IMG/VR virus record: IMGVR_UViG_3300031994_000056
Source of the DNA: a virus
Taxonomy: Duplodnaviria; Heunggongvirae; Uroviricota; Caudoviricetes
Strand: one strand, 5' to 3'
DNA: 64,000 nt
A program made the position numbers and the translations under genes. The notes under the pieces are model-generated. The model saw nothing but the letters and a program-made list of their open reading frames with translations. It was not told the DNA's origin and ran no database searches. Below are positions 17,720 to 57,666 of the stretch, piece after piece; positions within the stretch are counted from its first letter, which is position 1; each line of letters begins with the position of its first letter.

Positions 17720-17881
17720 ATGATAAATACTAATACAAAAGAAATAACATTTACGATGGATACAAAAAATAATAGATATTATTTTGGATGTGGAATATTT
17801 TATATATTTTATACAAGAGTTAATAGAAATAATTTAAATAATTATTCATGTCATTTTATAGGCAAGGAGTTAAAAAAATGA
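17720..17881 (+). CDS. hypothetical small protein (52 aa)
   Basis: Its stop overlaps the next gene's start (ATGA at 17878). Confidence 0.35.
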   Translation: MINTNTKEITFTMDTKNNRYYFGCGIFYIFYTRVNRNNLNNYSCHFIGKELKK

Positions 17882-19419
17882 GTTTAATTATTGCAGGGTT
17901 TCCCGGTATGGGTAAAGATGTTGATATAAATACACCAGTATTAACTTTAAATGGGTGGACAAAAGCAGGTAATATAAAATTAGGTGATTATTTAATTGGA
18001 CAAAATGGTAGACCAACTAAAGTTGTAGGTGTGTATCCACAAGGTGTTTTAGATAAATATGAAATAACTTTCAATGACAATACAAAAACAAATTGTGGTA
18101 TAGATCATTTATGGCAAGTAGCAAAAACAATAAATAAAAAAACAAATGAACCAAGATGGCAAGTTTTAAGTTTAAGAGAAATAATTAAAGATGGTATTGT
18201 TCGCAAATATGGAAATAAAATAAAGAGCAAATGGAGAATACCACTTACACAACCTGTACAATTTGAAGAACAAAAACATATAATAGATTCTTATATTTTA
18301 GGAACGTTAATAGGTAATGGCTATTTATGTGGCAATGTTGTTGAATATATTGGCTCTAATGAAGATAACTTTATAATAGATAAAATAAAAAAACTAATTA
18401 ACAATAAAAATATTTCTTTTGAAAATTGCACAACAAAAAATCAAACTTGCAACCACTATAAATTTATTAGGAAAAATAAACAAAATGAATATAAAAAAGA
18501 AATTAATAGACTTGGATTAAATGTAAAATCTGGACAAAAGTTTATACCAAAAGAATATTTAGTTGATTCTATAGAAAACAGAATAAAATTGTTAAATGGT
18601 TTAATGGATACTGATGGTTCAAGCAATCCAAGAAATAGAATTACATATTCAACAACTTCTAAACAACTTGTAGAAAATATTATAGAACTAGTACAGTCAT
18701 TAGGTGGAATGGCATGGTGTCATGTTTATAATAGAATTGGGAGAGAAAAGGAATACAAAGGAAAAAAGTATATTACAAAATCACTTGAGTACACAATTAG
18801 AATCACATTAAATAATATTTGTCCTTTTTCATTACCGAGAAAAGCTAAAAATTGGAGAAAAACAAAGTTTAAAAGATATTTGATTGATATTAAAAAAATT
18901 AAACCTGCAGAATCTGTTTGTTTTAGAGTTGATAATAAAGATGGACTGTTTTTAATAGAGAACTATATTGTAACACATAATTCTTCTTTATTTAATGAGA
19001 ATAAAGAATATTATTCTGATAGTGATAGTTCAAAATTTAATAAAAAAGATTTTCCAAATAACTATATAAAACATATTAAAAGTATTATGGGAAAAAAACA
19101 ATTAATACTTGTTTCTTCTCATATAGAAGTAAGAAATGCTTTAGTAAAAGAAAACATACCTTTTATTTATGTATTACCTACGCTTGATAGATTAGAAGAA
19201 TTTTGTAGTAATTATGAGAAGCGTGGATCATCAAAAGAATTTATAGAAAAAGTTAGAAAGAATTGGGAACAATGGTTAATGATTTCTGGATATAATACAG
19301 AGTATCCAGTTTACTTTTGTAAGCATGGTTATTTAAAAGATAATTTAGAAGGTATAGTAAAAGAGTATAATAAATTCTATAATGAACAAGTAAATAGAAT
19401 GATTAATTGGCAGGTATAA
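17878..19419 (+). CDS. P-loop NTPase / kinase-like protein interrupted by an intein in the Walker-A motif
   Basis: N-extein MSLIIAGFPGMGK plus C-extein SSLF... rebuilds GxxGxGKS; AAGGAG ribosome-binding site before the ATG at 17878; extein is about 165 aa. Confidence 0.65.
   Translation: MSLIIAGFPGMGKDVDINTPVLTLNGWTKAGNIKLGDYLIGQNGRPTKVVGVYPQGVLDKYEITFNDNTKTNCGIDHLWQVAKTINKKTNEPRWQVLSLREIIKDGIVRKYGNKIKSKWRIPLTQPVQFEEQKHIIDSYILGTLIGNGYLCGNVVEYIGSNEDNFIIDKIKKLINNKNISFENCTTKNQTCNHYKFIRKNKQNEYKKEINRLGLNVKSGQKFIPKEYLVDSIENRIKLLNGLMDTDGSSNPRNRITYSTTSKQLVENIIELVQSLGGMAWCHVYNRIGREKEYKGKKYITKSLEYTIRITLNNICPFSLPRKAKNWRKTKFKRYLIDIKKIKPAESVCFRVDNKDGLFLIENYIVTHNSSLFNENKEYYSDSDSSKFNKKDFPNNYIKHIKSIMGKKQLILVSSHIEVRNALVKENIPFIYVLPTLDRLEEFCSNYEKRGSSKEFIEKVRKNWEQWLMISGYNTEYPVYFCKHGYLKDNLEGIVKEYNKFYNEQVNRMINWQV
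17917..18981 (+). mobile_element. intein (355 aa) with a LAGLIDADG homing-endonuclease domain; class-3-like features
   Basis: Block A DVDINTPVLTLNG (first residue is Asp, not Cys/Ser); LAGLIDADG motifs ILGTLIGNGY and LLNGLMDTDGS; C-terminal IVTHN followed by Ser +1; Trp in DHLW, Cys in SVCF and Thr in VTHN form a WCT triad. Confidence 0.6.
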
Positions 19420-19987: not shown

Positions 19988-20017
19988 TTGACAAAAGTGT
20001 AATAAATATATTATAAT
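19988..20017 (+). promoter_or_regulatory. consensus promoter (TTGACA-18-TATAAT) at the head of the tRNA cluster
   Basis: ttgaca at 19988-19993 and tataat at 20012-20017. Confidence 0.6.
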
Positions 20018-20124
20018 TATTTCTGTAGTATACTATATGCTCACCACCTCCGCCTCTGCTTATATTAAAAGCTTTGATATAAGTTATGCGAAATAGAGGT
20101 TAGTTCTACATCTGGGGATTAAGA

Positions 20125-20284
20125 TGACAGCCTGGGCAATGATAAGTCCTTAGCAAGATGAATTCATCCCTGAAAGTAATCTAGGCTGGGTGGAAATAGA
20201 TTACTTACATGTGAAGCAGTAGCATTCAAGGTAATGCACCCAGCTGCAGATGGTAATATGTTGGTTCGATCCCAACCCTGTCAC
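20125..20284 (+). ncRNA. atypical tRNA-like element (acceptor halves about 160 nt apart; canonical T-arm at the 3' end)
   Basis: T-arm gttgg-ttcgatc-ccaac at 20260-20276 and 3' acceptor strand cctgtca; the only complementary 5' strand (tgacagc) lies at 20125. The insert holds the 12-nt perfect palindrome GATGAATTCATC. Confidence 0.3.
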
Positions 20285-20295
20285 ATGGAAATTAT

Positions 20296-21357: not shown

Positions 21358-21747
21358 TTAAATTCCGTTACCTAAATCTTGATAAAGTTCATCAAAATCT
21401 GCAAGAGATTGTATTGAATTATCAAGCATTATGTCAATATTATTGATACTTGTTTGTAAATTTTGAAGGTTCATATAAGATAAATCACGTACATTATGAT
21501 ATTTTGTCGTAAATTCTCCTATATATTTATCATAAAACTTACCATAAATAATCCAATCTTTTGGAAAAATATTGTAAATTAGTTGATCTATATTATTATA
21601 TTTTACGCCATATACGATAATATCACTAACATCATGTTTATAATATTGTCCAACTATGTGCATACATTTATTAAATGTATTTACATATTCACTAAACTTT
21701 GCGGTATTAAGGAGCATTATAGTCCCTCTCTTGTATGACATACCCAA
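21358..21747 (-). CDS. hypothetical protein
   Basis: 129 aa; last gene of the minus-strand operon. Confidence 0.5.
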   Translation of the reverse strand: MGMSYKRGTIMLLNTAKFSEYVNTFNKCMHIVGQYYKHDVSDIIVYGVKYNNIDQLIYNIFPKDWIIYGKFYDKYIGEFTTKYHNVRDLSYMNLQNLQTSINNIDIMLDNSIQSLADFDELYQDLGNGI

Positions 21748-22121
21748 GCATTGAGGTAATCTTTAGATACGGTTTTTATGGTGGTGGCATATATTACTTC
21801 ACTGGTAAGTTTTTCCAAATCTTTTAAATCTATATCATTTAAATTATAAAGGTCTCCATGGTAGAACACTTGAAGTTTATAATCAAGTTGTTCTGGTTTA
21901 AAGCTATACGATAATGCAATCTTTGCCAGATCAATCGGAAAGAAGTTTATAATATTACAATGGTACTTTCTTATATGATGACGTAATTTAAGTGTATTAG
22001 CTACTGTTATTTCATCTATAATATAGATATTATTATTCATAGGTGCTGGATCTATATATCTACTCCAATCCCAATGTGTCAATGCCATTATACACCTCTC
22101 CAGTGAAAATATTTTGGGCAT
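21717..22121 (-). CDS. hypothetical protein
   Basis: 134 aa; overlaps its neighbours. Confidence 0.5.
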   Translation of the reverse strand: MPKIFSLERCIMALTHWDWSRYIDPAPMNNNIYIIDEITVANTLKLRHHIRKYHCNIINFFPIDLAKIALSYSFKPEQLDYKLQVFYHGDLYNLNDIDLKDLEKLTSEVIYATTIKTVSKDYLNAWVCHTREGL

Positions 22122-22618
22122 GCATCACTAAGTGTTCTACTAGTATCTTTTGCCTGTGCCTGTATTATTTGGTACATAATAATAAACTCATGAAAGCTTA
22201 AATCTTCCAATCTTTTAATTGAATATGTATTAGTTTCTTCTACCTCAATATAACCGTCATAATAATATTTTTGTGTTGTTTTAAAACCAGCAGCCATAAA
22301 TACAGACATATCTCTAAGATCGCTTTCTTGAATTAGTTGTATGAAATACTGTTGTTCATCATTTTTATCAAAGACGAGATCCTCATTCATTTTATTGATT
22401 TCTTTTAGTTCTACTTGTTCGGTTATATTTTTAAACAGATCCAAGACTTTCCAGCATTCCATATTATTTATGAAATATTTATGTTCATTTAGTTTACATT
22501 GTGTAACACGTACAGGTATAAATTTATACATACTATCCGACAAACTGAACTGTATATCTCCAAATTTAGGTATAGTAACTTCTAGCATTTCATATTCCTC
22601 CGTTGCAAAAGCATACAA
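22088..22618 (-). CDS. hypothetical protein
   Basis: 176 aa; ends in RGV. Confidence 0.5.
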   Translation of the reverse strand: MYAFATEEYEMLEVTIPKFGDIQFSLSDSMYKFIPVRVTQCKLNEHKYFINNMECWKVLDLFKNITEQVELKEINKMNEDLVFDKNDEQQYFIQLIQESDLRDMSVFMAAGFKTTQKYYYDGYIEVEETNTYSIKRLEDLSFHEFIIMYQIIQAQAKDTSRTLSDACPKYFHWRGV

Positions 22619-22634
22619 TATTTAGGAATAAATG

Positions 22635-22958
22635 TCAAGTTTTTGCTCCGAATTCTTTTACAAGCCACAAGGCTTTACTATAACCCCAGATATCTCCCAA
22701 TGGTAAATCAAATCCGCTACATCCGTTCCAGTCTTTAAATTCTTTTAGATATTCTGGGACTGTTTTACTCAGTTCCGGGTACTTATCTTGTAGTGCTTTA
22801 AGTTTCTTGGCGAACTTATCGTACTGATAATCAGATATAATATTTGTATTGAGTCGGTAATATATAATGGAATGTACCAACACACACAGACGGAGTCTTT
22901 TGATTCCCTCCATGATTTTCCTTTCATCCTCGGTATATTTACGAATCTTTTCTTTCAT
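22635..22958 (-). CDS. hypothetical protein
   Basis: 107-aa ORF. Confidence 0.5.
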   Translation of the reverse strand: MKEKIRKYTEDERKIMEGIKRLRLCVLVHSIIYYRLNTNIISDYQYDKFAKKLKALQDKYPELSKTVPEYLKEFKDWNGCSGFDLPLGDIWGYSKALWLVKEFGAKT

Positions 22959-22961
22959 TTT

Positions 22962-23186
22962 TTATAATCCACAGATTGCAAGTATAATAAGGTACACACA
23001 TATAAACTTTACGCTGAGCACATCTTTAAGAAGTACAACTGCGCCTGCAAGTGTAAGTATACAAAGCCATCTATACATATTTATTTCCTCCCTGCCCCGT
23101 ACCATATAATCAGAGCCAAACAAATACATCCAAACATAAACCAAATCATACACCCTCCGTTTCTTCTGTAAGTATTTTAAATTCAT
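22962..23186 (-). CDS. small membrane protein
   Basis: 74 aa, two hydrophobic helices; overlaps the upstream gene by 41 nt. Confidence 0.35.
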   Translation of the reverse strand: MNLKYLQKKRRVYDLVYVWMYLFGSDYMVRGREEINMYRWLCILTLAGAVVLLKDVLSVKFICVYLIILAICGL

Positions 23187-23349
23187 CTAAATTCATGGTA
23201 AATTCTGTACCTTCTCCGATTATATAAAGATGCACTTTTTGTTTTTGCATATCATATTTAATTGGCATACACAATACATCTTCTTTAACCAGAAGCTCGG
23301 CAGTTGGAGTCATGCGAATTTGTATAGGTACTTTAACTTTTACAACCAT
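23146..23349 (-). CDS. small array protein ending in EGV
   Basis: 67 aa; member of the minus-strand small-gene array. Confidence 0.5.
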   Translation of the reverse strand: MVVKVKVPIQIRMTPTAELLVKEDVLCMPIKYDMQKQKVHLYIIGEGTEFTMNLDEFKILTEETEGV

Positions 23350-23380
23350 TAGAGTCCTCTAACCGAATCATATGTAAGTT

Positions 23381-23599
23381 TCATACACCCTCCTTAATTT
23401 CTTCGGTAATAAGTTTAAACACTTCGAGTGGAAGTATGAAGCTTTCTCCACCCCCAACGGGTTCAAGATACATATGATTTTCTGTATTCATATCATAGGA
23501 AACCCTATAGAATGTATTTTCGGGGATCATGGCGGTAGCTGTTCCACTATAACTATAACCAAATCCTTTAAAAATCGACGCTTTAAGTCTTACAATCAT
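23381..23599 (-). CDS. small array protein ending in EGV
   Basis: 72 aa; an 11-codon mini-ORF (MKLTYDSVRGL) bridges to the next gene through ATGA and TAATG overlaps. Confidence 0.5.
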   Translation of the reverse strand: MIVRLKASIFKGFGYSYSGTATAMIPENTFYRVSYDMNTENHMYLEPVGGGESFILPLEVFKLITEEIKEGV

Positions 23600-23600
23600 T

Positions 23601-23777
23601 CTAAACTCCTTTAATTAGTTCTTCGGAAAGTGGTGTGATATCTGCGATATATACAAAAAATTCCCGATTATCCAAACATACTTTGCAGTGCCAGCGACCA
23701 TCTTTTGTGGTCCCAAGAACTTCAAAAATCGTTCCTCTAGGTAATGTATATACATATCCGGTTATAACTCTATACAT
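23601..23777 (-). CDS. small array protein ending in KGV (58 aa, absent from the ORF track)
   Basis: MYRVITGYVYTLPRGTIFEVLGTTKDGRWHCKVCLDNREFFVYIADITPLSEELIKGV; its ATG lies 3 nt after the upstream stop. Confidence 0.5.
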   Translation of the reverse strand: MYRVITGYVYTLPRGTIFEVLGTTKDGRWHCKVCLDNREFFVYIADITPLSEELIKGV

Positions 23778-23780
23778 ATT

Positions 23781-24005
23781 CTAAACTCCGCCCTCAACTT
23801 TCTCTGACAGCCTTATTACTTCATCACCCCATAACCATCCAGACTCCTCTGTCTTTAATGATTTTACTTTTATTTGACATATATTCCTATCCAAAATCTT
23901 AATGGTATCTCCTCTTTTTAACCATCCGATATCTACAGTAACCACTCTTAATTGCCCTTTTATGCGCTTACGTTCTCTTTCTATTGCTTTTAAAAGTTCA
24001 TCCAT
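23781..24005 (-). CDS. small array protein ending in GGV
   Basis: 74 aa; 3-nt spacing to its neighbours. Confidence 0.5.
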   Translation of the reverse strand: MDELLKAIERERKRIKGQLRVVTVDIGWLKRGDTIKILDRNICQIKVKSLKTEESGWLWGDEVIRLSEKVEGGV

Positions 24006-24008
24006 ATA

Positions 24009-24230
24009 TTAAACACCCTCTTCTAATATATCCATATAATCTGTAAAATCTTCTGTAGGTATCCTAAATATATCATGTGAATTCATTATATTCTGTATTT
24101 CTATGAAACTGTCAGATATACTTAAAGTTTCATATAAAGTACCCTTGGGTATCTGTACTACGACGATATCTATACCAGTAGGATCTGTACCAATAGGTCT
24201 AAAATAAATACATTTTGTTATACATAACAT
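24009..24230 (-). CDS. small array protein ending in EGV (start moved to the internal ATG)
   Basis: The ORF track begins at TTG 24266, but TTGTATAAT there is the -10 of an internal promoter. GGAGGT and the ATG at 24230 give MLCITKCIYF... Confidence 0.45.
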   Translation of the reverse strand: MLCITKCIYFRPIGTDPTGIDIVVVQIPKGTLYETLSISDSFIEIQNIMNSHDIFRIPTEDFTDYMDILEEGV

Positions 24231-24257
24231 ATATACCGGTTTACCTCCATAAACCGA

Positions 24258-24287
24258 ATTATACAATACTTCCTATCCAAGTGTCAA
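24258..24287 (-). promoter_or_regulatory. internal consensus promoter on the minus strand (TTGACA-18-TATAAT)
   Basis: Minus-strand ttgacacttggataggaagtattgtataat; GGAGGT ribosome-binding site downstream. Confidence 0.5.
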
Positions 24288-24377
24288 TACTTATACATAA
24301 AGTCGTACGACTAAATGTATAAACAAACCATAAATTCTAATGACTAATTGGTTTTAACCCAAGTATGTTTAGGTTCA

Positions 24378-24584
24378 TTACACACCTTCCCAGATTCTAT
24401 GTACATAACTTGGATCTCTAAACTCTTCATAAGAAAGATGTAGCCGATGGTATTCATTTAGCACACTAACCAGGTTCGCCGAATAATTGTCGGATATGTC
24501 AACTCTCATGACGGTACCTTTCGGTATCATATAGCTATCACGAAAACCTCCCATATATAAATTACGTGTAGTTATACAAAGCAT
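24378..24584 (-). CDS. small array protein ending in EGV
   Basis: 68 aa; a 13-codon mini-ORF (MNLNILGLKPISH) overlaps its stop (TAATG). Confidence 0.5.
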   Translation of the reverse strand: MLCITTRNLYMGGFRDSYMIPKGTVMRVDISDNYSANLVSVLNEYHRLHLSYEEFRDPSYVHRIWEGV

Positions 24585-24587
24585 ATT

Positions 24588-24791
24588 TTACACTCCTTTC
24601 CCATTAACAATTGCTTTTCTTATCCCTTTTATATACCTTAATACCTTCTGATAAGCTTCAATTACTTCCTTATCGGTAGTCTGTAACAGTTCCCTTTCTA
24701 TAAATGCCTTTATATCATCACATACAGCTATCTCATCTGTATAAGTATACGGGCTTTCATTATCAAAAAGATCATCATATAATATACTCAT
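24588..24791 (-). CDS. small array protein ending in KGV
   Basis: 67 aa; AAAGGAGTG at its 3' end serves as the ribosome-binding site of the next gene. Confidence 0.5.
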   Translation of the reverse strand: MSILYDDLFDNESPYTYTDEIAVCDDIKAFIERELLQTTDKEVIEAYQKVLRYIKGIRKAIVNGKGV

Positions 24792-24803
24792 ATTACCTCC
24801 TAA

Positions 24804-24893
24804 TTAATCCAACAGTTTAAGTATAAGTATACAAACTACACCAGCTATACAAACCATACAAATACCACCAAATATAGATTCGGCTATTGTCAT
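24804..24893 (-). CDS. 29-aa hydrophobic peptide, first gene of the minus-strand operon
   Basis: TAAGGAGGGG ribosome-binding site then ATG: MTIAESIFGGICMVCIAGVVCILILKLLD. Confidence 0.35.
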   Translation of the reverse strand: MTIAESIFGGICMVCIAGVVCILILKLLD

Positions 24894-24925
24894 ACCTAGC
24901 CCCTCCTTATATATTAACTATCCGA

Positions 24926-24955
24926 ATTATACAATAATCCAAACTAAAATGTCAA
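24926..24955 (-). promoter_or_regulatory. consensus promoter on the minus strand (TTGACA-18-TATAAT) for the divergent small-gene operon
   Basis: Minus-strand ttgacattttagtttggattattgtataat. Confidence 0.6.
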
Positions 24956-24989
24956 GGGAAATTTATTTTCTCGGGATGTAAAAAAGGCA

Positions 24990-25145
24990 GACGGTTTGGG
25001 AAATTCAAAATCCGTACACGTGCTACATAAGTAAACTATCCAGACAGATTGGAAATTTCGAAATCCGTACATGCGTTCTATATAAACTATATGGTTAAAA
25101 AAGGCGTACGAAAGGGAAAAATCAAAAACCAGACACGCGTTCTTA
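24990..25145. repeat. three imperfect direct repeats of about 60 bp (GGGAAATTCAAAATCCGTACACGYG...TAAACTAT)
   Basis: Copies start near 24999, 25050 and 25113, each preceded by AAAAAAGGC(A/G)(G/T)ACG; they sit in the divergent region between the minus-strand promoter and the gene at 25311. Confidence 0.6.
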
Positions 25146-25310
25146 AAGGGGCAATGACCGCTTAAAGAGGGGGGACCTTCCCCCAAGCGTATCTTACACC
25201 GGAAAAACCCTACCTACCTGGGTCATTTACCTAGTATATACTAAGTAATACCTGGTATAGGCGGGTTATTAATAATGGGGTGGCGCCCCTTACCAGCCAA
25301 GGAGGACATC

Positions 25311-25754
25311 ATGTCCAATACAACAACCTTCCAAGTTCTTAAGAACTTGGTGTTCACTGCTGACATTACAGCAGCATCTTTGGAGACTAAAGTTTCCAGA
25401 AAGACAGGTACTTCGTACCAGCAGTTCAGTACGCCTATTTATTTAGGTGGAGTAAGAGCAGGAGACATTACAGCCTTCGTACCTAAAGCTCCAAAATTGG
25501 TACTCAGAGATGGTGAGTATAAACCCGTATTTATACTTGACTATGAGTATAAAGCATGGGTAAGCTTAAAGGAAGAAGACCTCGGAGACTACAAGATGTT
25601 CTACGAAGGTGACCAGAATCAGCACCACGTAAAAGGCTATTCCAAAGGTGGAATAACCATCTGGGCTTATACGGATATCCAGGATAAGAAAGAAGCTGGA
25701 TTGATAAGAGCTCAGATCGTTCTCAGAACCAGAGGCTTTGCAACCGCAAAGTAA
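25311..25754 (+). CDS. hypothetical protein in the GC-richer island
   Basis: AAGGAGG ribosome-binding site then ATG (MSNTTTFQVL...); about 45% GC against about 28% elsewhere; no motif recognised. Confidence 0.5.
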   Translation: MSNTTTFQVLKNLVFTADITAASLETKVSRKTGTSYQQFSTPIYLGGVRAGDITAFVPKAPKLVLRDGEYKPVFILDYEYKAWVSLKEEDLGDYKMFYEGDQNQHHVKGYSKGGITIWAYTDIQDKKEAGLIRAQIVLRTRGFATAK

Positions 25755-25807
25755 GGTAGGAGCACTGACCAAACCCATCGGCTTCGGTGGGTTTGGATGA
25801 GTGCTTT

Positions 25808-25917
25808 GGAACCTGTAGCTCAGTGGCAGAAGCTTGAAGTGCTCCCTGAAATAACGGGATACAACCGTAACACATGTCCAACGGTGACCCTGGTTCGATT
25901 CCAGGCAGGTTCCACCA
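25808..25917 (+). ncRNA. tRNA-like RNA with an encoded CCA and an extra internal stem-loop (about 110 nt)
   Basis: Acceptor ggaacct/aggttcc then a-CCA; D-arm agct-cagtggcaga-agct; T-arm cctgg-ttcgatt-ccagg; no canonical 7-nt anticodon loop; preceded by the 10-bp hairpin aaacccatcg-gctt-cggtgggttt. Confidence 0.4.
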
Positions 25918-25938
25918 AAATCTCAAAAGGAGGTTATT

Positions 25939-26103
25939 ATGAAAAAATTGATAAACCTATTTTTTATAGTAGGTGCAATAATTATTTATGGCTTAATAGT
26001 TGGAGCGTTCTTTCTGGGAAATGCAAGTGAAATACTATTCCTTATGCTCGGTTTCCTGGGCGGAATCTATATCGCACTTTATTTGACTGTAAAATATTTA
26101 TAG
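25939..26103 (+). CDS. small membrane protein (54 aa, absent from the ORF track)
   Basis: AAGGAGG ribosome-binding site; MKKLINLFFIVGAIIIYGLIVGAFFLGNASEILFLMLGFLGGIYIALYLTVKYL. Confidence 0.45.
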   Translation: MKKLINLFFIVGAIIIYGLIVGAFFLGNASEILFLMLGFLGGIYIALYLTVKYL

Positions 26104-26119
26104 GTAGAAATAATAATCA

Positions 26120-26151
26120 CCCGAGAATATTGACATATCCTTGGGTTTTTT
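26120..26151 (+). terminator. possible intrinsic terminator
   Basis: cccgag ... cttggg stem (G-U wobble) with a 14-nt loop, then tttttt. Confidence 0.3.
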
Positions 26152-26464
26152 GGTAAGCTATTTAGAATGATAAGAATGTTTCCAGAGATTCTTCTGCGGA
26201 ACAATCAAGCGTTTACCGCCTGTCCTATAGCTCGTTACTAGCCTAAGAGTAAGATTGTCAACCCCGACTTACGTGAATACATCTTTCTACATTCACCACT
26301 TATCGTATATGGCTCCACGTCTTTCGATTGATTTTTCAATGTTTTTCTGAGTTTGAAATTATTAACTTATCTCAACTAAGTTCCTTTATCAAAGGTGTGA
26401 AACTTAGAAAAGCACGCTGATACAAAGTGTGCAATTATGATATATTTGTCAAGGGAGGTATGTT

Positions 26465-26617
26465 ATGTTTAAAAGGTATATTATATACGCTCGTAGTGAA
26501 GAACGCACAGATTATGTAACGGAGTTCCGCACTCAGGAAAGTGCAGAGAAGTTCATACAAGATAAAGCTCACGAGTTCCAGGGATGTGAGCTTTATTGCG
26601 TTGTGAAGCATTATTAA
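26465..26617 (+). CDS. hypothetical small protein (50 aa)
   Basis: AAGGGAGG ribosome-binding site; MFKRYIIYARSEERTDYVTEFRTQESAEKF... Confidence 0.35.
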   Translation: MFKRYIIYARSEERTDYVTEFRTQESAEKFIQDKAHEFQGCELYCVVKHY

Positions 26618-26623
26618 AGGAGG

Positions 26624-26758
26624 ATGGAAATGATAATAGTATTAAATGTAGTATTCGGAATTTTATTATTTTGTTACTGTCACTTTATTAACGGTCCAGT
26701 AACAAAAGCTCTAAAGGAGGAACTTAAAGCGTTGGAAGCAAAACGTGTTGAAAAGTAA
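26624..26758 (+). CDS. hypothetical small membrane protein (about 44 aa)
   Basis: AAAGGAGG ribosome-binding site; M(EM)IIVLNVVFGILLFCYCHF... Confidence 0.3.
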   Translation: MEMIIVLNVVFGILLFCYCHFINGPVTKALKEELKALEAKRVEK

Positions 26759-26796
26759 ACGCGTTTTGAAAATTTTGAAATCGACTTGCGATTTCT

Positions 26797-26880
26797 TTCT
26801 TGGGAAGGAGGCAGACCCAAGCGTAGCACTTGAGAGTAGTTCACTCTCATCCAAGCCTTAGTTTGCTTGGTGTGTCTGCT
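26797..26880. repeat. large inverted repeat (15-bp stem, 14/15 matched) enclosing two internal hairpins
   Basis: gggaaggaggcagac ... gtctgcttccttccc; internal pairs gagag/ctctc and ccaagc/gcttgg. Confidence 0.55.
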
Positions 26881-26888
26881 TCCTTCCC

Positions 26889-26949
26889 TGTGTATAAGTA
26901 GGAAAGTTATACACAAGTTATTCACAACCTGTGGATAAGCTGTGTATAA
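26889..26949. promoter_or_regulatory. cluster of five DnaA boxes (TTATNCACA) overlapping a candidate promoter for the plus-strand small-gene array
   Basis: tgtgtataa at 26889-26897 (minus), ttatacaca at 26907-26915 (plus), ttattcaca at 26918-26926 (plus), tgtggataa at 26930-26938 (minus, perfect TTATCCACA), tgtgtataa at 26941-26949 (minus). A ttcaca -35 and tataac -10 lie among them. Confidence 0.6.
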
Positions 26950-26995
26950 CTGGATTACGATAGTAAGACTATAACTTAAGGATAGGAGGGATAAT

Positions 26996-27205
26996 ATGCC
27001 AAACATAAATAGAGTAATTGTAGTATGCAAAACATTGCTTAAGTATAAGCTAAAAGGGTTAATAGATGAACATGATGATACCATAATAACCAGTATGTTC
27101 TATCATATGGATTTAGATAGTTTAACTAGGAATGATTGGGAGTATGTAATAGAACAGTTGGTTGCAGAGTGTGTATATTTGGAATTCTGTACATGTTTAA
27201 AATAA
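26996..27205 (+). CDS. hypothetical protein, first gene of the plus-strand array
   Basis: GGAGGG ribosome-binding site; 69 aa. Confidence 0.5.
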   Translation: MPNINRVIVVCKTLLKYKLKGLIDEHDDTIITSMFYHMDLDSLTRNDWEYVIEQLVAECVYLEFCTCLK

Positions 27206-27217
27206 AGGAGGTAACCT

Positions 27218-27400
27218 ATGAATACCTATATGAAGAAAGATTCGGTGATACATTTAGATGATGCTACGATAGTAGTTAGGGAAGGCAAATGTGAAACCTG
27301 TTGTTTTTTCAATGAGTTTTCAACTGATCACTGTACTATTCGTAATAAGTGTAGAGTATCATTAGGGTTGCATTATGAGAGGCTGGAAGGAGGTGTGTGA
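27218..27400 (+). CDS. small Cys-rich array protein (CxxC), ends LEGGV
   Basis: VREGKCETCCFF motif; its stop overlaps the next ATG (GTGTGATG). Confidence 0.55.
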   Translation: MNTYMKKDSVIHLDDATIVVREGKCETCCFFNEFSTDHCTIRNKCRVSLGLHYERLEGGV

Positions 27401-27663
27401 TGATACAAATTGAAGAATGGTATATGTATGGTAAGAAGTACTACACCATTGAATATAACGGTAAAACATATATAGCTAGGAAATCAAATATGCCCTGTAA
27501 AGCTTGTGCATTCGTAAGTAATATATCACCAAGCGGATATTTTACTGATAGAGTGTATTGTAAGCTTCCTAATACACTCCGAACAAAAGAACTTATGTGT
27601 CCGCTTCACGTAGCATTTCCAAACGAGAATAAAGTATTTGTGGAAGTGATAGGAGGTGTGTGA
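27397..27663 (+). CDS. small Cys-rich array protein, ends IGGV
   Basis: PCKACAF motif; ATGA overlap. Confidence 0.55.
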   Translation: MMIQIEEWYMYGKKYYTIEYNGKTYIARKSNMPCKACAFVSNISPSGYFTDRVYCKLPNTLRTKELMCPLHVAFPNENKVFVEVIGGV

Positions 27664-27968
27664 TGGAGGACTTTAGAGAAGCATTTAAGAAGTATATAGA
27701 AGGTGTTGCTACAGAGAAAATAAATAAGATTGCGAGAAAAAGTGCGAAACGTTTTAAACAGAACCAAATACTAGAGCTTGATGGTGTGAAAGTTATGATA
27801 CAAAAAGGAGCTTGTGGGAATGGAGGATGCTACTTTAGTAGGGAAAGAACCAGTAAGATATCCGGGAAATATATAGGCAGAGTTTGTATGGCACGGTTTC
27901 ATTGTTATAAAATACTTAAGGAGCTTCATGGTAAGTATCATTTTATTTGTGTTGAAGGAGGGGTATGA
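27660..27968 (+). CDS. small Cys-rich array protein, ends EGGV
   Basis: IQKGACGNGGCYFS motif. Confidence 0.55.
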   Translation: MMEDFREAFKKYIEGVATEKINKIARKSAKRFKQNQILELDGVKVMIQKGACGNGGCYFSRERTSKISGKYIGRVCMARFHCYKILKELHGKYHFICVEGGV

Positions 27969-28150
27969 TGGCAAAATATAAGATGGGAGATAAAATAACT
28001 TATGGAAAGGCAAGACTTACAGTGGTGAAAGGAAAATGTGAGGATTGCTACTTCTCGACTCCTTATGGTTGCATGTCAGTATTTATTGAAGGCTGTGCAA
28101 GTACACTTGGGTTTGATTTGATATTCATTCCTACAAGAAAGGGGGTATAA
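27965..28150 (+). CDS. small Cys-rich array protein (family VxKGxCxxCYF), paralog 1
   Basis: MMAKYKMGDKITYGKARLTVVKGKCEDCYFS...; 61 aa, ends KGV. Confidence 0.6.
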   Translation: MMAKYKMGDKITYGKARLTVVKGKCEDCYFSTPYGCMSVFIEGCASTLGFDLIFIPTRKGV

Positions 28151-28335
28151 TGATAACAAAATATAAGATAGGTGATAGATTAACTTATGGAAAGACAAGA
28201 CTTATAGTAGTTAAAGGTAGCTGTAAGAATTGCTACTTCTCAGCCCCTCATGGTTGCATGGCAAAGTTTGCTGGAATCTGTGCAAGTACACTTGGGTTTA
28301 ATCTAAAATTTATACCTGTGGGAAAGGGGGTATGA
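28150..28335 (+). CDS. small Cys-rich array protein, paralog 2 (about 66% identical to the previous gene)
   Basis: MITKYKIGDRLTYGKTRLIVVKGSCKNCYFS...; 40 of 61 positions identical by manual alignment. Confidence 0.6.
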   Translation: MITKYKIGDRLTYGKTRLIVVKGSCKNCYFSAPHGCMAKFAGICASTLGFNLKFIPVGKGV

Positions 28336-28336
28336 T

Positions 28337-28531
28337 ATGCCAAGATATAAAGTAGGTGAAAGAATAGTTGTAGGAGCGGTTGAAGCCGTTGTAGTTCGTG
28401 GAAACTGCGAAAGTTGTTTCTTTAGTAGACATATTTTTCTATATAAAACAGAATGTATGTTGGATGAAGAAAGCTGTATAGAAGAAATCGGTTTTGGTAA
28501 CTGCTATAAAGTATTGAAAAAAGGGCTTTAG
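28337..28531 (+). CDS. small Cys-rich array protein, paralog 3
   Basis: MPRYKVGERIVVGAVEAVVVRGNCESCFFS... Confidence 0.55.
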   Translation: MPRYKVGERIVVGAVEAVVVRGNCESCFFSRHIFLYKTECMLDEESCIEEIGFGNCYKVLKKGL

Positions 28532-47057: not shown

Positions 47058-47351
47058 ATGTTTGATTATGTATTATATGTAATAAAGTTCTTGACATTTG
47101 TTATTGGTATCGGGACTTACATTTTTCAATGGGCAAGTTTGATGTATGAAATTATAGAAGGAGAAGTTAAAAATAAAAAAGAAATTATATGGAAAGTTAT
47201 ACCTTTTGGTTTTCTAATACTCGTAGTTTGGAAGTGGCAAGAACTTAGCAAAAAAGAGTTTGTTTATGAAGCAGAAGTTGTAAATAAAGAAGAAGTAGGA
47301 GTTGTAAATACAGAAAAAAAGGAGGAAAGAAAATGTTTGAAAAATATATAG
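47058..47351 (+). CDS. small membrane protein
   Basis: 97 aa, two TM helices. Confidence 0.45.
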   Translation: MFDYVLYVIKFLTFVIGIGTYIFQWASLMYEIIEGEVKNKKEIIWKVIPFGFLILVVWKWQELSKKEFVYEAEVVNKEEVGVVNTEKKEERKCLKNI

Positions 47352-49177
47352 GACAAAATCACATTAAAGATTTACTTTCAAAGTTTATTACTTACAGTAA
47401 ATCTTCAACAGAACCTTTGCAACATATGTTAATTACTGGTTCTTCGGGTGCGGGTAAGACGACATTAGCAAATGCAATCGCAAAAGAACTTGGAGTTAAA
47501 TGTGTATCGTTACTTGCAACAAATGCATCTGAAGATGATTTGATAAAAGCAATCTGCAATTTGAGTGATAAAGATATCTTGTTCATAGATGAATGTTTAT
47601 CTGGTGATACAGAAGTTTTAACCGAAAACGGTTATATAAGATTAGATAAATTAACAACTGAAACTCGTGTAGCTCAATGGAATAATGGAGTTATCGAATT
47701 TGTTTATCCAGAAAGAATAGTTAAAAAATATGCAAAGAAAGTTTATGAATTGCCTATAAAAGACAATATGATATTGTATCAAACAGAACATCATAGAAAT
47801 CTTATATATGATAAACAGTCAAAAACAAATAAAGTAAAATACCCTTCACAGTTAACAAGTGCACATAGTGTTATTTGTTCTGGAAAGATAAAAGATAAAC
47901 ATAATAAGTTAACTTTATTAGAAAAATTAATTATTATGACACAAGCTGATGGGTCAGTTAATGATAAAAATGTCGCAGGTATTCCAGTTACATTTTCGAT
48001 TTCATTATCTAAGCAAAGAAAAATAAAGTATTTAAATTCATTAATAAAATTAGATATAAATAACTCTTTTAAAATACGTGAAGTAAAAGGTGCTAAAGCT
48101 CATGAGAATGTAAAATCAATGAAACGTTGGTTGTATAATTTACCTAAAACTTCAAAAGATTATAAACTATTATCTAATTGGTTTACTTTAACTGATTTTG
48201 ATTTATCTAAAGCAAATGAGTTTTTAAAGAATATATTTATTTGGGATTCTGCAGACTATGCTACTGGTAAAGTATATTGTACTACGGAAAAAGCTAATGC
48301 TGAATTTGTATATCAAGTAATGGTTCTCGCAGGTTATACACCATATATAAGTAAGCAAATTGATAAAAGAGGTTACAAAACACATTATAGAGTTTATATG
48401 CCAGATAAAACACGTAAATTATCTTTGCAGCATATACATGAAAAAAGAAAGCTTATTGATTGGAATGATTATATGTATTGTATAACAGTACCTTCTACAT
48501 TTTTTATAGTAAAAAAAGATGGATATACATTTGTAACAGGTAATTGTCATGCATTGAATAAGAAACTTATTGAGATATTGTTTCCAATAATAAGTGAACA
48601 TATATTATACACAAAGTATCAAGGAGTGATGACTAGGTTTAGAGTATCAAACTTTACTATCATTGGAGCAACAACTCATGAAGGTAAGTTACCGACTGCA
48701 TTCTTAAATAGATTTACAGTTACTTTAAATCTTAAACCTTATACTGAAAGTGAATTGTCTACAATGACAAAACTATATCTCGGACAATATAAAGCAGATG
48801 ATACTATGCTTAATGCAATTGTGAATATGTCTAAAGGAGTTCCAAGAATTATAACAAATATAGTTAATAGTGTGAAAGTTTATTTGAAAAGTTTAGGTAA
48901 GGATACATTAGAGCAGAAAGACTTAAAGATGATACAAATGTTTTTAGGTGTTAATGACATTGGTTTAAACAATGTTGACTTCGAAATATTAAAGTATCTC
49001 TGCAAAGTTAAAGCTGCATCGTTAAAAACTCTTGCAAGTGTATTGAGTATTGAAGCAATTAATATCGAGCAGATACATGAACCATACTTAATTAAACTTG
49101 GTTTCATTGAAAGATGTTCTGCAGGAAGAACAATTACAGATGCAGGAAGAAAATATTTAGTTGACAAACAAATTTAA
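47333..49177 (+). CDS. ruvB: RuvB-like Holliday-junction AAA+ ATPase interrupted by an intein
   Basis: Walker A GSSGAGKTTLANAIAKELG; Walker B ILFIDE then intein then CHAL (IHRL equivalent); GATTHEGKLPTAFLNRF and GVPRII sensor regions; C-terminal winged-helix-like tail matching the RuvB layout. Confidence 0.8.
   Translation: MFEKYIGQNHIKDLLSKFITYSKSSTEPLQHMLITGSSGAGKTTLANAIAKELGVKCVSLLATNASEDDLIKAICNLSDKDILFIDECLSGDTEVLTENGYIRLDKLTTETRVAQWNNGVIEFVYPERIVKKYAKKVYELPIKDNMILYQTEHHRNLIYDKQSKTNKVKYPSQLTSAHSVICSGKIKDKHNKLTLLEKLIIMTQADGSVNDKNVAGIPVTFSISLSKQRKIKYLNSLIKLDINNSFKIREVKGAKAHENVKSMKRWLYNLPKTSKDYKLLSNWFTLTDFDLSKANEFLKNIFIWDSADYATGKVYCTTEKANAEFVYQVMVLAGYTPYISKQIDKRGYKTHYRVYMPDKTRKLSLQHIHEKRKLIDWNDYMYCITVPSTFFIVKKDGYTFVTGNCHALNKKLIEILFPIISEHILYTKYQGVMTRFRVSNFTIIGATTHEGKLPTAFLNRFTVTLNLKPYTESELSTMTKLYLGQYKADDTMLNAIVNMSKGVPRIITNIVNSVKVYLKSLGKDTLEQKDLKMIQMFLGVNDIGLNNVDFEILKYLCKVKAASLKTLASVLSIEAINIEQIHEPYLIKLGFIERCSAGRTITDAGRKYLVDKQI
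47594..48544 (+). mobile_element. intein (317 aa) with a degenerate LAGLIDADG-like endonuclease region
   Basis: Block A CLSGDTEVLTENG immediately after Walker B; ends ...FVTGN with Cys at +1; LIIMTQADGS resembles a LAGLIDADG motif. Confidence 0.65.
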
Positions 49178-57665: not shown

Positions 57666-57666
57666 T

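What the first reader, a model, noticed from the sequence alone, without database searches (positions are those of the whole stretch)
26797..26949. Five DnaA boxes in 61 bp next to a 15-bp-stem inverted repeat: candidate origin or DnaA-controlled switch
Every 9-mer listed in the feature entry fits TTATNCACA: three in one orientation and two in the other, one being the perfect TTATCCACA. Immediately upstream is GGGAAGGAGGCAGAC...GTCTGCTTCCTTCCC (14/15 bp) enclosing two smaller hairpins, and further upstream short AT-rich direct repeats (ttttgaaaattttgaaat). A -35/-10 pair (TTCACA ... TATAAC) is embedded among the boxes, directly ahead of the first gene of the plus-strand array. Either this is a phage origin that recruits host DnaA, or host DnaA gates transcription of the early array. 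DnaA-box density this high is very unlikely by chance in about 30% GC DNA.
Basis: partly seen in the sequence, partly recalled or inferred. Interest (0 to 1): 0.75.

Follow-up and report, generated by a model that had tools for sequence, protein, structure and literature searches.

The report
Conserved DnaA-box array in phage
An uncultured ~162-kb phage carries, just ahead of a long block of early genes, a conserved cluster of binding sites for the host replication initiator DnaA joined to a conserved RNA hairpin; it looks like a host-sensing gate or boundary rather than a replication origin, and resembles an unexplained feature of phage T5.

Summary
Five exact TTATNCACA boxes lie in 26889-26949, where simulations give at most 2 per 61 bp, directly after an 87-nt hairpin (26802-26888).

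Both features are conserved as one module in 13 versions of the locus from related metagenomic phages, which carry 4-8 boxes each. The eight specified box positions never change, while position 5 and the spacers vary. The double-box 24-mer found in several relatives recurs at dnaA/oriC loci across bacterial phyla, in over 120 viral contigs, and at 23/24 bases in the T5 injection-stop region. The sites are therefore almost certainly host-DnaA sites.

The origin reading is not supported by the architecture:
- There are no DnaA-trios and no AT-rich unwinding element.
- The two box arrays face each other.
- The flanks are a GC-rich hairpin and a ribosome-binding site.
- One relative replaces the boxes with a different palindrome.

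The proposed -35/-10 pair is not conserved, and plus-strand genes lie upstream. The hairpin tolerates G.U pairs only as plus-strand RNA, so the module probably sits inside a transcript.

Best reading (about 0.4): a DnaA-loaded gate or boundary between immediate-early genes and the long rightward array. Its function is untested.

The parts
26792..26801 (+). Pyrimidine tract TTTCTTTCTT immediately 5' of the hairpin
   Evidence: A T/C-rich tract is present in all 12 aligned relatives. Its role is unknown.
26802..26888 (+). Conserved 87-nt stem-loop, probably plus-strand RNA. The outer stem is 26802-16 / 26874-88 and the inner hairpin GAGAGT-AGTTC-ACTCTC is 26832-48.
   Evidence: MFE is -46.3 kcal/mol, z = -6. 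The 14-bp outer stem is kept in 12/12 versions with 99.5% of cells paired. There is one invariant G.U and there are A-U<->G.U toggles at two pairs. The interior diverges but still folds. There is no Rfam match, even at E <= 1.
26889..26897 (-). DnaA box 1 (TGTGTATAA), 1 nt after the hairpin
   Evidence: It is exact in 9 of 13 versions and degenerate in L008, L016, L017 and L021; L018 is also degenerate here.
26907..26915 (+). DnaA box 2 (TTATACACA)
   Evidence: It is present in all 13 versions, 18-20 nt after the hairpin.
26918..26926 (+). DnaA box 3 (TTATTCACA)
   Evidence: It is conserved, lying 2-3 nt after box 2.
26930..26938 (-). DnaA box 4 (TGTGGATAA, perfect consensus), convergent with box 3 across an invariant 3-nt gap
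   Evidence: The spacer length of 3 is fixed while its sequence varies (acc, tgt, ggt, agc) in relatives.
26941..26949 (-). DnaA box 5 (TGTGTATAA), head-to-tail with box 4
   Evidence: Relatives carry 2-5 head-to-tail minus-oriented boxes here at an 11-12 bp period.
26955..26966 (.). Small 4-bp stem with a tetraloop (TTAC-gata-GTAA)
   Evidence: The stem covaries across relatives: CTAC/GTAG in L005, CCGC/GCGG in L016, L019 and L020, and CTGC/GCAG in L018. It is absent from L007, L008, L011 and L017.
26970..26978 (-). Remnant of a sixth box (TATAACTTA)
   Evidence: L005 has an intact TGTGTATAACTTA here, and the window lacks 4 nt. A final box followed by CTTAGG and the ribosome-binding site is conserved in relatives.
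26983..27205 (+). Ribosome-binding site (TAGGAGGG) and the 69-aa ORF (26996-27205), the first gene after the module
   Evidence: Homologues at 68-100% identity occur in metagenomes. In L008 and L011 a different 105-aa gene follows the module.
26921..26950 (+).
   Evidence: It is present in the sequence. It was not listed by the promoter scan, which requires a T at -10 position 6. It is kept in only about 5 of 12 versions.
26764..26795 (+). AT-rich direct repeats and a small terminator-like hairpin (26777-26795); lineage-specific and not part of the conserved module
   Evidence: In most relatives a mini-ORF replaces it.

Best explanation
The element is a composite, conserved cis-module inside the rightward early transcription unit of a ~162-kb low-GC phage. 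It consists of a structured plus-strand RNA stem-loop followed within 1-20 nt by two short, opposed arrays of host-DnaA boxes, and it ends 6-45 nt before the ribosome-binding site of the next gene.

Proposed mechanism. Host DnaA (inferred, not shown) loads cooperatively on the 11-12-bp-phased boxes and builds a compact nucleoprotein block. The block sits between a few immediate-early plus-strand genes (25.3-26.8 kb) and the long plus-strand array (27 kb onward). RNA polymerase arriving from upstream has just made the hairpin when it meets this block. Passage into the array is therefore paused, terminated or timed according to how much active DnaA the host has. The hairpin serves as the 3'-end, release or processing structure.

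Shown: the boxes, their conservation, their identity with bacterial oriC/dnaA box modules, the hairpin's conservation, and the lack of origin features.

Inferred: DnaA binding, transcription through the module, and the gating effect.
For: 1. The cluster is far beyond chance.
2. Thirteen distinct versions were recovered using the hairpin arms only. All carry 4-8 exact boxes in the same layout. Across the 70 boxes of the 12 versions tallied, the eight consensus positions are fixed, position 5 is free (C29/A26/T8/G7), the flanks read aAGTTATNCACAGG, and spacer sequences vary while spacer lengths are kept.
3. The exact 24-mer TGTGGATAAGTCTGTGGATAACTT, present in relatives L011, L016, L017 and L019, occurs in 78 bacterial genome stretches across many phyla. 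Of these, 33 have a dnaA gene inside the <=8-kb locus. The sites therefore match what host DnaA recognises.
4. No DnaA-domain-IV-like ORF was found in the window.
5. The hairpin has one invariant G.U and two A-U<->G.U toggles. The plus-strand RNA is more stable than the minus-strand RNA in 10 of 12 versions. This points to a plus-strand transcript running into the boxes.
6. Upstream ORFs or a mini-ORF with a strong ribosome-binding site end 8-45 nt before the hairpin.
7. There is no strong sigma-A promoter on the plus strand between 24955 and 31118. Perfect ones exist elsewhere, including two that drive the leftward cluster.
8. The embedded -35/-10 pair is not conserved.
9. The module travels with its ribosome-binding site in front of different genes. 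In L014/L015 the box cassette is replaced by another palindrome while the hairpin and neighbouring genes stay. That is how an exchangeable operator behaves.
Against: - There are no binding, transcript-end or expression data.
- Eleven of the 14 outer-stem pairs never vary, so the RNA-versus-DNA argument rests on three one-sided changes.
- The promoter that would feed the module has not been identified.
- By rough geometry, the distance from hairpin to boxes (18-20 nt) would stall polymerase slightly too early for a classical hairpin-release mechanism.
- No U-tract follows the hairpin.
- The host is unknown.
- A lytic phage gains no obvious benefit from letting a host protein block its own early operon.
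Confidence: 0.4

Rival explanations
1. Replication origin or helicase-loading site. Host DnaA bound to the boxes opens nearby DNA, or acts on an R-loop made by the hairpin transcript as in ColE1/pBR322 or lactococcal phage c2 ori, and loads a helicase to start phage replication.
For: - DnaA-box clusters are the hallmark of oriC and of several plasmid and phage origins (established knowledge).
- The module lies near the divergent junction and the local cumulative-skew minimum.
- The distant relatives Lactococcus phages LW81 and PMBT69 carry 7-8 DnaA boxes together with iteron-like repeats in a ~1-kb non-coding divergent junction.
- A structured transcript next to the boxes could prime synthesis.
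Against: - There are no DnaA-trios and no AT-rich unwinding element, although both follow the same boxes in Clostridia oriC.
- The arrays converge on each other.
- Local GC is above the genome average.
- The flanks are a GC-rich hairpin and a ribosome-binding site plus coding sequence. In L008 and L011 only 6 nt separate the last box from the ribosome-binding-site region.
- There are no adjacent iterons or rep gene, and no replication initiator was recognised in the window.
- The boxes are dispensable in L014/L015.
- The skew signal is explained by gene orientation.
Confidence: 0.2
2. A T5-type injection-stop or anchoring signal. The boxes, with the abutting palindrome, bind membrane-associated DnaA as the DNA enters. 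This pauses or tethers the genome at the boundary between first-entering immediate-early DNA and the rest.
For: - The T5 iss region contains DnaA boxes in pairs separated by 3 bp, next to palindromes (Davison, bioRxiv 10.1101/866236).
- T5 itself reads TGTTGATAAGTCTGTGGATAACTTA, which matches 23 of 24 bases of this clade's double box. Palindrome D abuts its boxes.
- The topology is the same: a leftward promoter-driven small-gene cluster, a non-coding repeat region, the boxes, then rightward genes.
- The phage encodes an A1-like protein (57725-59257; PHROG 1745 at E = 3e-95, ~27% identity to T5-group A1).
Against: - The role of DnaA in the T5 iss is itself only a hypothesis.
- The A1 homologue lies 31 kb downstream of the boxes, not in the segment that would enter first. 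No A2 was recognised.
- Genome termini are unknown. Assemblies are circularly permuted.
- The shared 24-mer is also common in bacteria, so it shows a shared host factor, not shared mechanism or ancestry.
Confidence: 0.12
3. A DnaA sink or modulator. Multiplying phage genomes titrate DnaA (datA-like), or the opposed boxes change its nucleotide state (DARS-like), to shut down or reprogramme host initiation.
For: - Box copy number changes quickly between relatives (4-8), as if dosage matters.
- The central oppositely oriented pair flanked by same-direction boxes recalls the DARS core, where boxes I and II are opposed and II and III are parallel (PMC6868365).
- The double box is widespread in phages: at least 120 IMG/VR contigs hold it, and only 1 of these has a dnaA-like ORF.
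Against: - The fixed register with the hairpin and the ribosome-binding site is not needed for a sink.
- The DARS spacer is 5 bp, whereas here it is always 3.
- A phage with an A1-like candidate host-DNA-degradation protein has little need to block initiation.
- There are no IHF or Fis site data.
Confidence: 0.1
4. An operator for a phage-encoded DNA-binding protein that happens to share, or mimics, the DnaA-box sequence. DnaA would be irrelevant or merely a competitor.
For: - Repeated, symmetric sites upstream of an operon are typical operators.
- Most neighbouring genes are ORFans of unknown function.
- L014/L015 carry a different palindrome at the same place.
Against: - The motif, including its free fifth position and extended flanks, equals the DnaA consensus.
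- The same 24-mer sits at bacterial dnaA loci.
- Unrelated phage families carry it, which a private repressor would not explain.
- tblastn found no DnaA-domain-IV-like ORF in the window (limited sensitivity, and only 64 of 162 kb were searched).
Confidence: 0.08

Closest known systems
DnaA-box pairs in the injection-stop (iss) region of T5-like phages (Heusterspreute 1987 as cited in, and Davison 2020, bioRxiv 10.1101/866236)
   Same: - Head-to-tail DnaA boxes with a 3-bp 'gtc' spacer and a CTTA flank; T5 matches 23 of 24 bases.
- A palindrome directly abuts the boxes.
- The position is at the edge of a block of small, promoter-driven very-early genes.
- The element is conserved where the coding sequence around it is not.
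- An A1-like gene is present in the genome.
   Different: - T5 has about 8 mostly degenerate boxes spread over two 131-bp inverted repeats in a ~1.5-kb untranslated zone of the terminal repeat. Here there are 4-8 mostly perfect boxes in 60-110 bp inside an operon.
- The A1 homologue is 31 kb away.
- The termini and the mode of DNA entry are unknown.
- The large hairpin here behaves like an RNA.
Bacterial oriC DnaA-box arrays with the basal unwinding system (DnaA boxes, DnaA-trios, AT-rich DUE), as seen in Clostridia loci L059, L078 and L105
   Same: - The same 9-mers.
- The same 24-nt double box.
- The same 11-12-bp phasing that supports cooperative DnaA oligomers.
   Different: - No DnaA-trios (CTA repeats) and no AT-rich element.
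- The arrays point at each other rather than toward an unwinding region.
- No dnaA or dnaN neighbour.
DnaA as a transcription factor or roadblock (dnaA autoregulation; DnaA-box-dependent termination; review PMC8203912; roadblock cases from my own knowledge)
   Same: High-affinity boxes are placed between an upstream transcription source and a downstream ribosome-binding site, in both orientations.
   Different: No promoter has been mapped. Box density is far higher than at known regulated promoters. The boxes are coupled to a conserved 87-nt RNA structure. No phage example is known.
DARS1/DARS2 core of E. coli (PMC6868365)
   Same: A central pair of oppositely oriented boxes is flanked by a same-direction box.
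   Different: The spacer is 3 bp, not 5. There are more boxes. No IHF or Fis region is evident. The host is probably a Firmicute, where DARS is not described.
Non-coding divergent junction of Lactococcus 949-group phages (LW81 KY554777 ~24.5-25.5 kb; PMBT69 PQ036876 ~12.1-12.9 kb)
   Same: These are the nearest cultured relatives, by the P-loop protein at ~35% identity. They carry 7-8 exact DnaA boxes, including a convergent pair with a 3-nt gap, at the junction between leftward and rightward small-gene blocks.
   Different: Their boxes are spread over ~400-800 bp among iteron-like repeats. I did not look for the hairpin module there. In the hit table the LW81 match overlaps no annotated feature, and the PMBT69 match lies under two small 'hypothetical protein' CDS.
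Cis-acting leader RNAs of phage early operons (RNase III sites of T7/SP82, lambda nut, HK022 put); a lead from memory only
   Same: A conserved structured RNA sits near the head of a very long co-directional gene array.
   Different: There is no sequence or Rfam similarity. There is only one copy in the window. Its function is untested.

Membership tests
DnaA-box cluster (host DnaA binding sites) | 9-mers matching TTATNCACA, clustered beyond chance | tested here: met
   There are 5 boxes in 61 bp. Simulations give at most 2, and the window-wide count is near expectation.
DnaA-box cluster (host DnaA binding sites) | Selection acts on the consensus positions rather than on the surrounding sequence | tested here: met
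   The 70 boxes tallied across 12 distinct versions keep positions 1-4 and 6-9 fixed (by definition of an exact match), and the sites persist at homologous positions in all 13 versions. Position 5 is C29/A26/T8/G7, and spacer sequences vary.
DnaA-box cluster (host DnaA binding sites) | The same site arrangement is used at bacterial dnaA/oriC loci | tested here: met
   The 24-mer double box of relatives occurs in 78 genome stretches, 33 with dnaA within the locus. The window itself carries a 2-nt-spacer variant.
DnaA-box cluster (host DnaA binding sites) | Physical binding by DnaA | not testable with these tools
   This needs EMSA, footprinting or ChIP with the (unknown) host's DnaA.
DnaA-dependent chromosomal-type origin (boxes + DnaA-trios + DUE) | DnaA-trios (repeated CTA/TAG triplets) next to the proximal box | tested here: not met
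   None lies on either side in the window or its relatives. They are clear in Clostridia oriC loci that carry the same boxes.
DnaA-dependent chromosomal-type origin (boxes + DnaA-trios + DUE) | An AT-rich unwinding element adjacent to the boxes | tested here: not met
   GC in 50-nt bins over 26801-27000 is 0.36-0.52, against 0.284 for the window. The flanks are a GC-rich hairpin and a ribosome-binding site plus coding sequence.
DnaA-dependent chromosomal-type origin (boxes + DnaA-trios + DUE) | Boxes oriented so the DnaA filament grows toward the DUE | tested here: not met
   The plus-oriented and minus-oriented arrays converge across a 3-nt gap in all versions.
DnaA-dependent chromosomal-type origin (boxes + DnaA-trios + DUE) | Origin activity or a strand-asymmetry switch | tested here: inconclusive
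   The local cumulative GC-skew minimum near 25 kb coincides with the switch in gene orientation. The full genome was not available.
Iteron-type plasmid/phage origin with auxiliary DnaA boxes (P1 oriR, F, pSC101, RK2) | Iterons and a cognate rep gene next to the boxes | tested here: not met
   The nearest direct repeats (3 x 52 nt, 24978-25146) are 1.7 kb away. No initiator was recognised among the window proteins scanned.
T5 injection stop signal | Paired DnaA boxes with 3-bp spacers beside palindromes in an untranslated region | tested here: met
   Searches compared. The resemblance reaches 23 of 24 bases.
T5 injection stop signal | Location at the inner edge of the first-step-transfer DNA in a terminal repeat, with A1 and A2 encoded in that segment | tested here: not met
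   The A1 homologue is at 57725-59257, 31 kb to the right. The termini are unknown, so the location part could not be tested.
T5 injection stop signal | Two-step DNA transfer | not testable with these tools
   This needs infection experiments.
Sigma-A promoter overlapped by an operator | Conserved -35/-10 hexamers at 16-18 nt spacing within the boxes | tested here: not met
   TTCACA-18-TATAAC lacks the -10 final T and was not listed by the scan, whose rule requires that T. It is kept in about 5 of 12 versions.
Intrinsic (Rho-independent) terminator | A GC-rich hairpin followed by a U-tract | tested here: not met
   The hairpin is followed by CUGUGUAUAAG. The scan lists only the small lineage-specific hairpin at 26777-26795.
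Any Rfam RNA family | A covariance-model match | tested here: not met
   There is no hit at the gathering score in the window, and none at E <= 1 in 24700-27100.
DARS (DnaA-reactivating sequence) | Boxes I and II opposed with a 5-bp space, and box III parallel to II | tested here: not met
   The topology is similar, but the gap is invariably 3 bp (PMC6868365).

The most novel reading that the evidence does not exclude
The hairpin plus opposed-DnaA-array module is a phage 'checkpoint' that makes progression from immediate-early to later genes depend on the host's DnaA state. Progression here means transcription and, if genome entry is transcription-driven, DNA entry itself. It would be a transcription-level counterpart of the T5 injection stop. 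It would also be one instance of a general, unrecognised use of host DnaA by many unrelated phages. The same double box is present in at least 120 viral contigs, T5-like phages, T7-like phages near their ends, 949-group phages and microviruses.
Probability: 0.15. Interest if true: 0.8.

Novelty: new variant of a known kind. Interest (0 to 1): 0.55.

Why it matters
DnaA boxes in phage early regions have been noted since 1987 in T5, but no function has ever been demonstrated. This locus gives a compact case of about 190 bp, strongly conserved and well constrained by comparison, in an unrelated Firmicute-type phage clade. It has a clear architecture: an RNA hairpin, two opposed phased arrays and a ribosome-binding site. 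There is also a natural 'swap' variant that lacks the boxes.

Together with the finding that the identical double box is common in viral contigs that have no dnaA nearby, it suggests that recruiting the host initiator for something other than replication initiation may be widespread among phages. It also provides a tractable element on which the T5 iss/DnaA hypothesis and DnaA-as-roadblock ideas could be tested.

Tried and rejected
- **DNA similarity to known phages.** megablast and blastn of 25500-28500 gave no match.
- **The window's source contig in IMG/VR.** It was not found by the hairpin pattern or by the 147-aa protein.
- **Rfam and tRNA explanations for the hairpin.** None was found.
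- **A second copy of the hairpin in the window.** There is none; the hit at 30786 is an ordinary ribosome-binding site.
- **The other TTATNCACA pairs (19718/19754, 46396/46411).** They lie in coding sequence and are consistent with chance.
- **The inner four boxes as a selected ssDNA hairpin (ABC-primosome 'A site' type).** Rejected, because position 5 does not covary between the arms and the spacers change.
- **A promoter inside or at the last box.** Rejected; see the membership rows above.
- **DnaA-trios on either flank.** Absent.
- **Annotation of neighbours by Pfam and PHROGs.** They are nearly all ORFans.
- **Contexts of the unrelated viral contigs L001-L003 with the same 2+2 pattern.** They carry phage genes (GP88, M15 peptidase) but no replication genes beside the arrays.
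- **Literature on 949-group DnaA boxes.** Nothing was found in the library.
Full report
**1. Observation**

Reading 26400-27400 and a pattern search confirm five exact TTATNCACA 9-mers:
- 26889-97 (-)
- 26907-15 (+)
- 26918-26 (+)
- 26930-38 (-), the perfect TTATCCACA
- 26941-49 (-)

The window as a whole has only 11 such sites (5.97 expected; 5 of 100 shuffles reach 11). One-mismatch variants of TTATCCACA are at chance level (24 against 27 expected). The signal is therefore purely local. In 300 first-order Markov simulations of the window, no 61-bp span contained more than 2 boxes.

Boxes 2-5 form a 22-nt inverted repeat with 11-bp phasing. The upstream inverted repeat (26802-16 / 26874-88) closes an 87-nt stem-loop with RNA MFE -46 kcal/mol, z = -6.

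**2. Context**

The window comes from a large low-GC (28%) phage.
- Its ribosome-binding sites are AGGAGG-type and its promoters are perfect TTGACA-N17/18-TATAAT, which is the Firmicute style.
- It has six tRNA genes at 20.3-21.05 kb.
- It has inteins in a RuvB-like and a P-loop protein, an SF2 helicase and a T5-A1-like protein.
- It has no DNA similarity to any deposited phage. The only distant protein similarity is to the Lactococcus 949 group.

A leftward cluster of small genes (21358-24893) is driven by two perfect promoters at 24955 and 24287. To its right lie a GC-rich non-coding stretch with three 52-nt repeats (24978-25146), several short plus-strand genes (25311-26758) and then the hairpin-box module. 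A plus-strand array follows and runs to the end of the window.

The boxes are therefore inside the rightward unit, not at its head. No strong sigma-A promoter exists on the plus strand between 24955 and 31118.

**3. Relatives**

The 69-aa protein just downstream is encoded on ~161.5-162.8-kb contigs in several metagenomes. It has homologues at 68-94% identity. Fetching their loci, and separately scanning metagenomes with the hairpin arms only, a query blind to the boxes, gave 13 distinct versions of the module.

Every version has 4-8 exact boxes in the same layout:
- the hairpin
- 1 nt
- a minus-oriented box, degenerate in four versions
- about 9 nt
- two plus-oriented boxes
- an invariant 3-nt gap
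- two to five head-to-tail minus-oriented boxes at an 11-12-bp period
- optionally, a 4-bp stem with a tetraloop that covaries (TTAC/GTAA, CTAC/GTAG, CCGC/GCGG, CTGC/GCAG)
- a final box
- CTTAGG
- the ribosome-binding site

In the window the final box is broken by a 4-nt deletion (26970-78); L005 has it intact.

The 70 boxes in the 12 versions tallied give aAGTTATNCACAGG, with position 5 as C29/A26/T8/G7. Spacer sequences differ (acc, tgt, ggt, agc) while spacer lengths are kept. That is the constraint pattern expected of DnaA sites.

A more divergent relative (L014/L015) keeps a recognisable hairpin and the downstream gene but has a different palindrome and no boxes.

**4. Are they DnaA sites?**

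The exact 24-mer TGTGGATAAGTCTGTGGATAACTT of relatives L011, L016, L017 and L019 was searched in 185,579 bacterial species genomes. It occurs in 78 stretches spread over Proteobacteria, Clostridia, Lactobacillales, Chloroflexota, Deinococcus, Oligoflexia and others. About 0.004 would be expected for a random 24-mer. Thirty-three of the 78 loci (each <=8 kb) encode a DnaA domain IV. This places the module at oriC/dnaA regions.

The same 24-mer is in at least 120 IMG/VR viral contigs, and only one of these has a dnaA-like ORF.

BLAST of an array from a relative hits several kinds of phage:
- T5-like and T7-like phages near their ends
- KVP40-like vibriophages
- microviruses
- 949-group lactococcal phages

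T5 itself reads TGTTGATAAGTCTGTGGATAACTTA in its injection-stop region, next to palindrome D.

I found no DnaA-domain-IV-like ORF in the window. Host DnaA is thus by far the most economical ligand. Binding itself is inferred.

**5. The hairpin**

In an alignment of 12 versions (A2), the 14-bp outer stem is paired in 99.5% of cells.
- Eleven pairs never vary, which says nothing either way.
- One pair is G.U in all 12 versions.
- Two pairs toggle between A-U and G.U, and one between C-G and U-G.
- Those states pair only in plus-strand RNA.
- The plus strand folds better than the minus strand in 10 of 12 versions.
- The interior diverges strongly yet keeps lineage-specific helices and a conserved GAGU...ACUC hairpin with one compensatory change.

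This is moderate evidence for a plus-strand RNA element, and therefore for transcription entering the box array from upstream. There is no U-tract, no Rfam match and no second copy in the window.

In 10 of 13 versions a mini-ORF (MKKLHL*, MKKLKF* or MKKM*) with a strong ribosome-binding site ends just before the hairpin. In the window a 44-aa ORF ends there instead.

**6. Origin test**

Clostridia oriC loci carrying the same boxes show the canonical sequence: boxes, a short GC cluster, CTACTACTACTA (DnaA-trios), then a long AT-rich element. The phage module has none of this:
- The arrays face each other.
- The left flank is the GC-rich hairpin.
- The right flank is the ribosome-binding site and coding sequence.
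- Local GC (0.36-0.52) exceeds the window mean of 0.284.
- There are no iterons or rep gene alongside.

The local skew minimum near 25 kb mirrors gene orientation. An unconventional, R-loop-type origin cannot be excluded, but the defining features of DnaA-dependent origins were tested and not met.

**7. Promoter test**

TTCACA-18-TATAAC exists in the window, but the -10 lacks its final T. It was not listed by the scan, whose rule requires that T. It is disrupted in most relatives by GATAAC in place of TATAAC, by 19-nt spacing or by inserted boxes. No alternative sigma-A promoter is conserved at the last box.

**8. Mechanism**

The best-supported reading is a DnaA-loaded block in the leader of the long rightward array. 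It would gate or time passage from the few immediate-early plus-strand genes. The hairpin would act as the associated RNA 3'-end, release or processing structure. I put this at about 0.4.

This reading explains four things:
- the fixed register of hairpin, boxes and ribosome-binding site
- the module travelling in front of different genes
- the replaceable cassette in L014/L015
- the absence of origin features

The rivals are an unconventional origin (0.2), a T5-iss-like entry stop or anchor (0.12), a DnaA sink or DARS-like modulator (0.1) and a private phage operator (0.08).

**9. Comparison and novelty**

DnaA boxes in phage early or entry regions are known from T5-like phages, where their role is still hypothetical (bioRxiv 10.1101/866236; PMC13250531). 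This instance is a new variant. It is compact, built mostly of consensus boxes, fused to a conserved RNA structure, located inside an operon, and found in an uncultured Firmicute-type phage clade.

The broader observation may be the more interesting lead: the identical double box is frequent in viral contigs and occurs in several phage families.

**10. Limits**

- Only 64 of about 162 kb were examined.
- The host, the termini, the transcripts and DnaA binding are all unknown.
- The hairpin's RNA nature rests on few informative substitutions.

Noticed in passing
window 25807-25916 (+): A tRNA-like gene with perfect acceptor, D and T arms and an encoded CCA, but a 31-nt insertion in the anticodon loop. 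ARAGORN in intron mode calls it tRNA-Cys(ACA) with an intron. The default ARAGORN and Rfam runs miss it.
   Followed up: partly
window 24960-25300: A GC-rich non-coding stretch with three imperfect 52-nt direct repeats (24978, 25031, 25095), between the leftward promoter and the 147-aa gene. These could be iterons, unusual promoters or an ncRNA.
   Followed up: partly
window 24955-24926 (-) and 24287-24258 (-); L008 1688, L016 1053: Two perfect TTGACA-18-TATAAT promoters sharing TTGTATAATTCGG drive the leftward small-gene cluster. The promoter is conserved in relatives.
   Followed up: partly
window 23146-24584 (-) and 27218-28531 (+): Paralogous families of 58-102-aa proteins. Many are Cys-rich (CxxC), and nearly all end in -GGV or -KGV because the next gene's ribosome-binding site and GTG/ATG overlap the stop codon (GGAGGTGTGTGA). 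They have no Pfam or PHROG hits.
   Followed up: no
relatives L005, L007, L008, L011, L016, L019-L023, just 5' of the hairpin: A 4-6-codon mini-ORF (MKKLHL*, MKKLKF*, MKKM*) with a strong ribosome-binding site ends 8-25 nt before the hairpin in 10 of 13 versions. It may be a leader peptide. It is absent from the window.
   Followed up: partly
window 26955-26966 and the equivalent sites in L005, L016, L018-L020: A tiny stem-loop between box 5 and the final box, with four different compensatory stem sequences.
   Followed up: partly
L014/L015 ~225-390: A divergent relative keeps the hairpin, but a different palindrome (CTATCCGTA..TACGGGTAG) and an AT-rich stretch replace the DnaA boxes.
   Followed up: partly
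window 57725-59257 (+), promoter at 57666: A T5-A1-like metallophosphatase ('DNA transfer protein', PHROG 1745, E = 3e-95) with its own extended -10 promoter, followed by an SF2 helicase.
   Followed up: partly
window 47333-49177 and 17848-19419: A RuvB-like protein whose N- and C-terminal domains are separated by ~450 aa, and a P-loop (terminase/PhoH-like) protein with Hint and LAGLIDADG domains. Both probably contain inteins.
   Followed up: no
L027 (Lactococcus phage LW81, 24.5-25.5 kb) and L028 (PMBT69, 12.1-12.9 kb): About 1-kb non-coding divergent junctions with ~8 iteron-like repeats and 7-8 exact DnaA boxes, including TTATCCACAgggTGTGGATAA. In the hit table the LW81 match overlaps no annotated feature, and the PMBT69 match lies under two small 'hypothetical protein' CDS.
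   Followed up: partly
IMG/VR loci L108 onward; INPHARED hits H41-H70: The exact double DnaA box occurs in at least 120 viral contigs, and 1 of the 120 has a dnaA-like ORF. Similar arrays lie near the ends of T7-like Klebsiella phages (positions 36-79), in KVP40-like vibriophages and in microviruses.
   Followed up: partly
L001-L003 (IMG/VR): Unrelated phage contigs with 8-29 DnaA boxes in non-coding junctions, including the same 2+2 convergent pattern. No replication genes are adjacent.
   Followed up: partly
window 20030-20295 and 26130-26460: Non-coding stretches of 250-300 nt that follow promoter-like sites (a perfect promoter at 19988; TTGACA at 26130). They may encode ncRNAs. There is no Rfam hit in 24700-27100.
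   Followed up: no
window 22635-22958 (-): A stand-alone 107-aa protein consisting only of the NAD+-ligase N-terminal Ia domain (PF22745, E = 5e-27), within the leftward early cluster.
   Followed up: no
window 19-30 kb: GC content is 34-40% here against ~25-28% elsewhere in the window.
   Followed up: no
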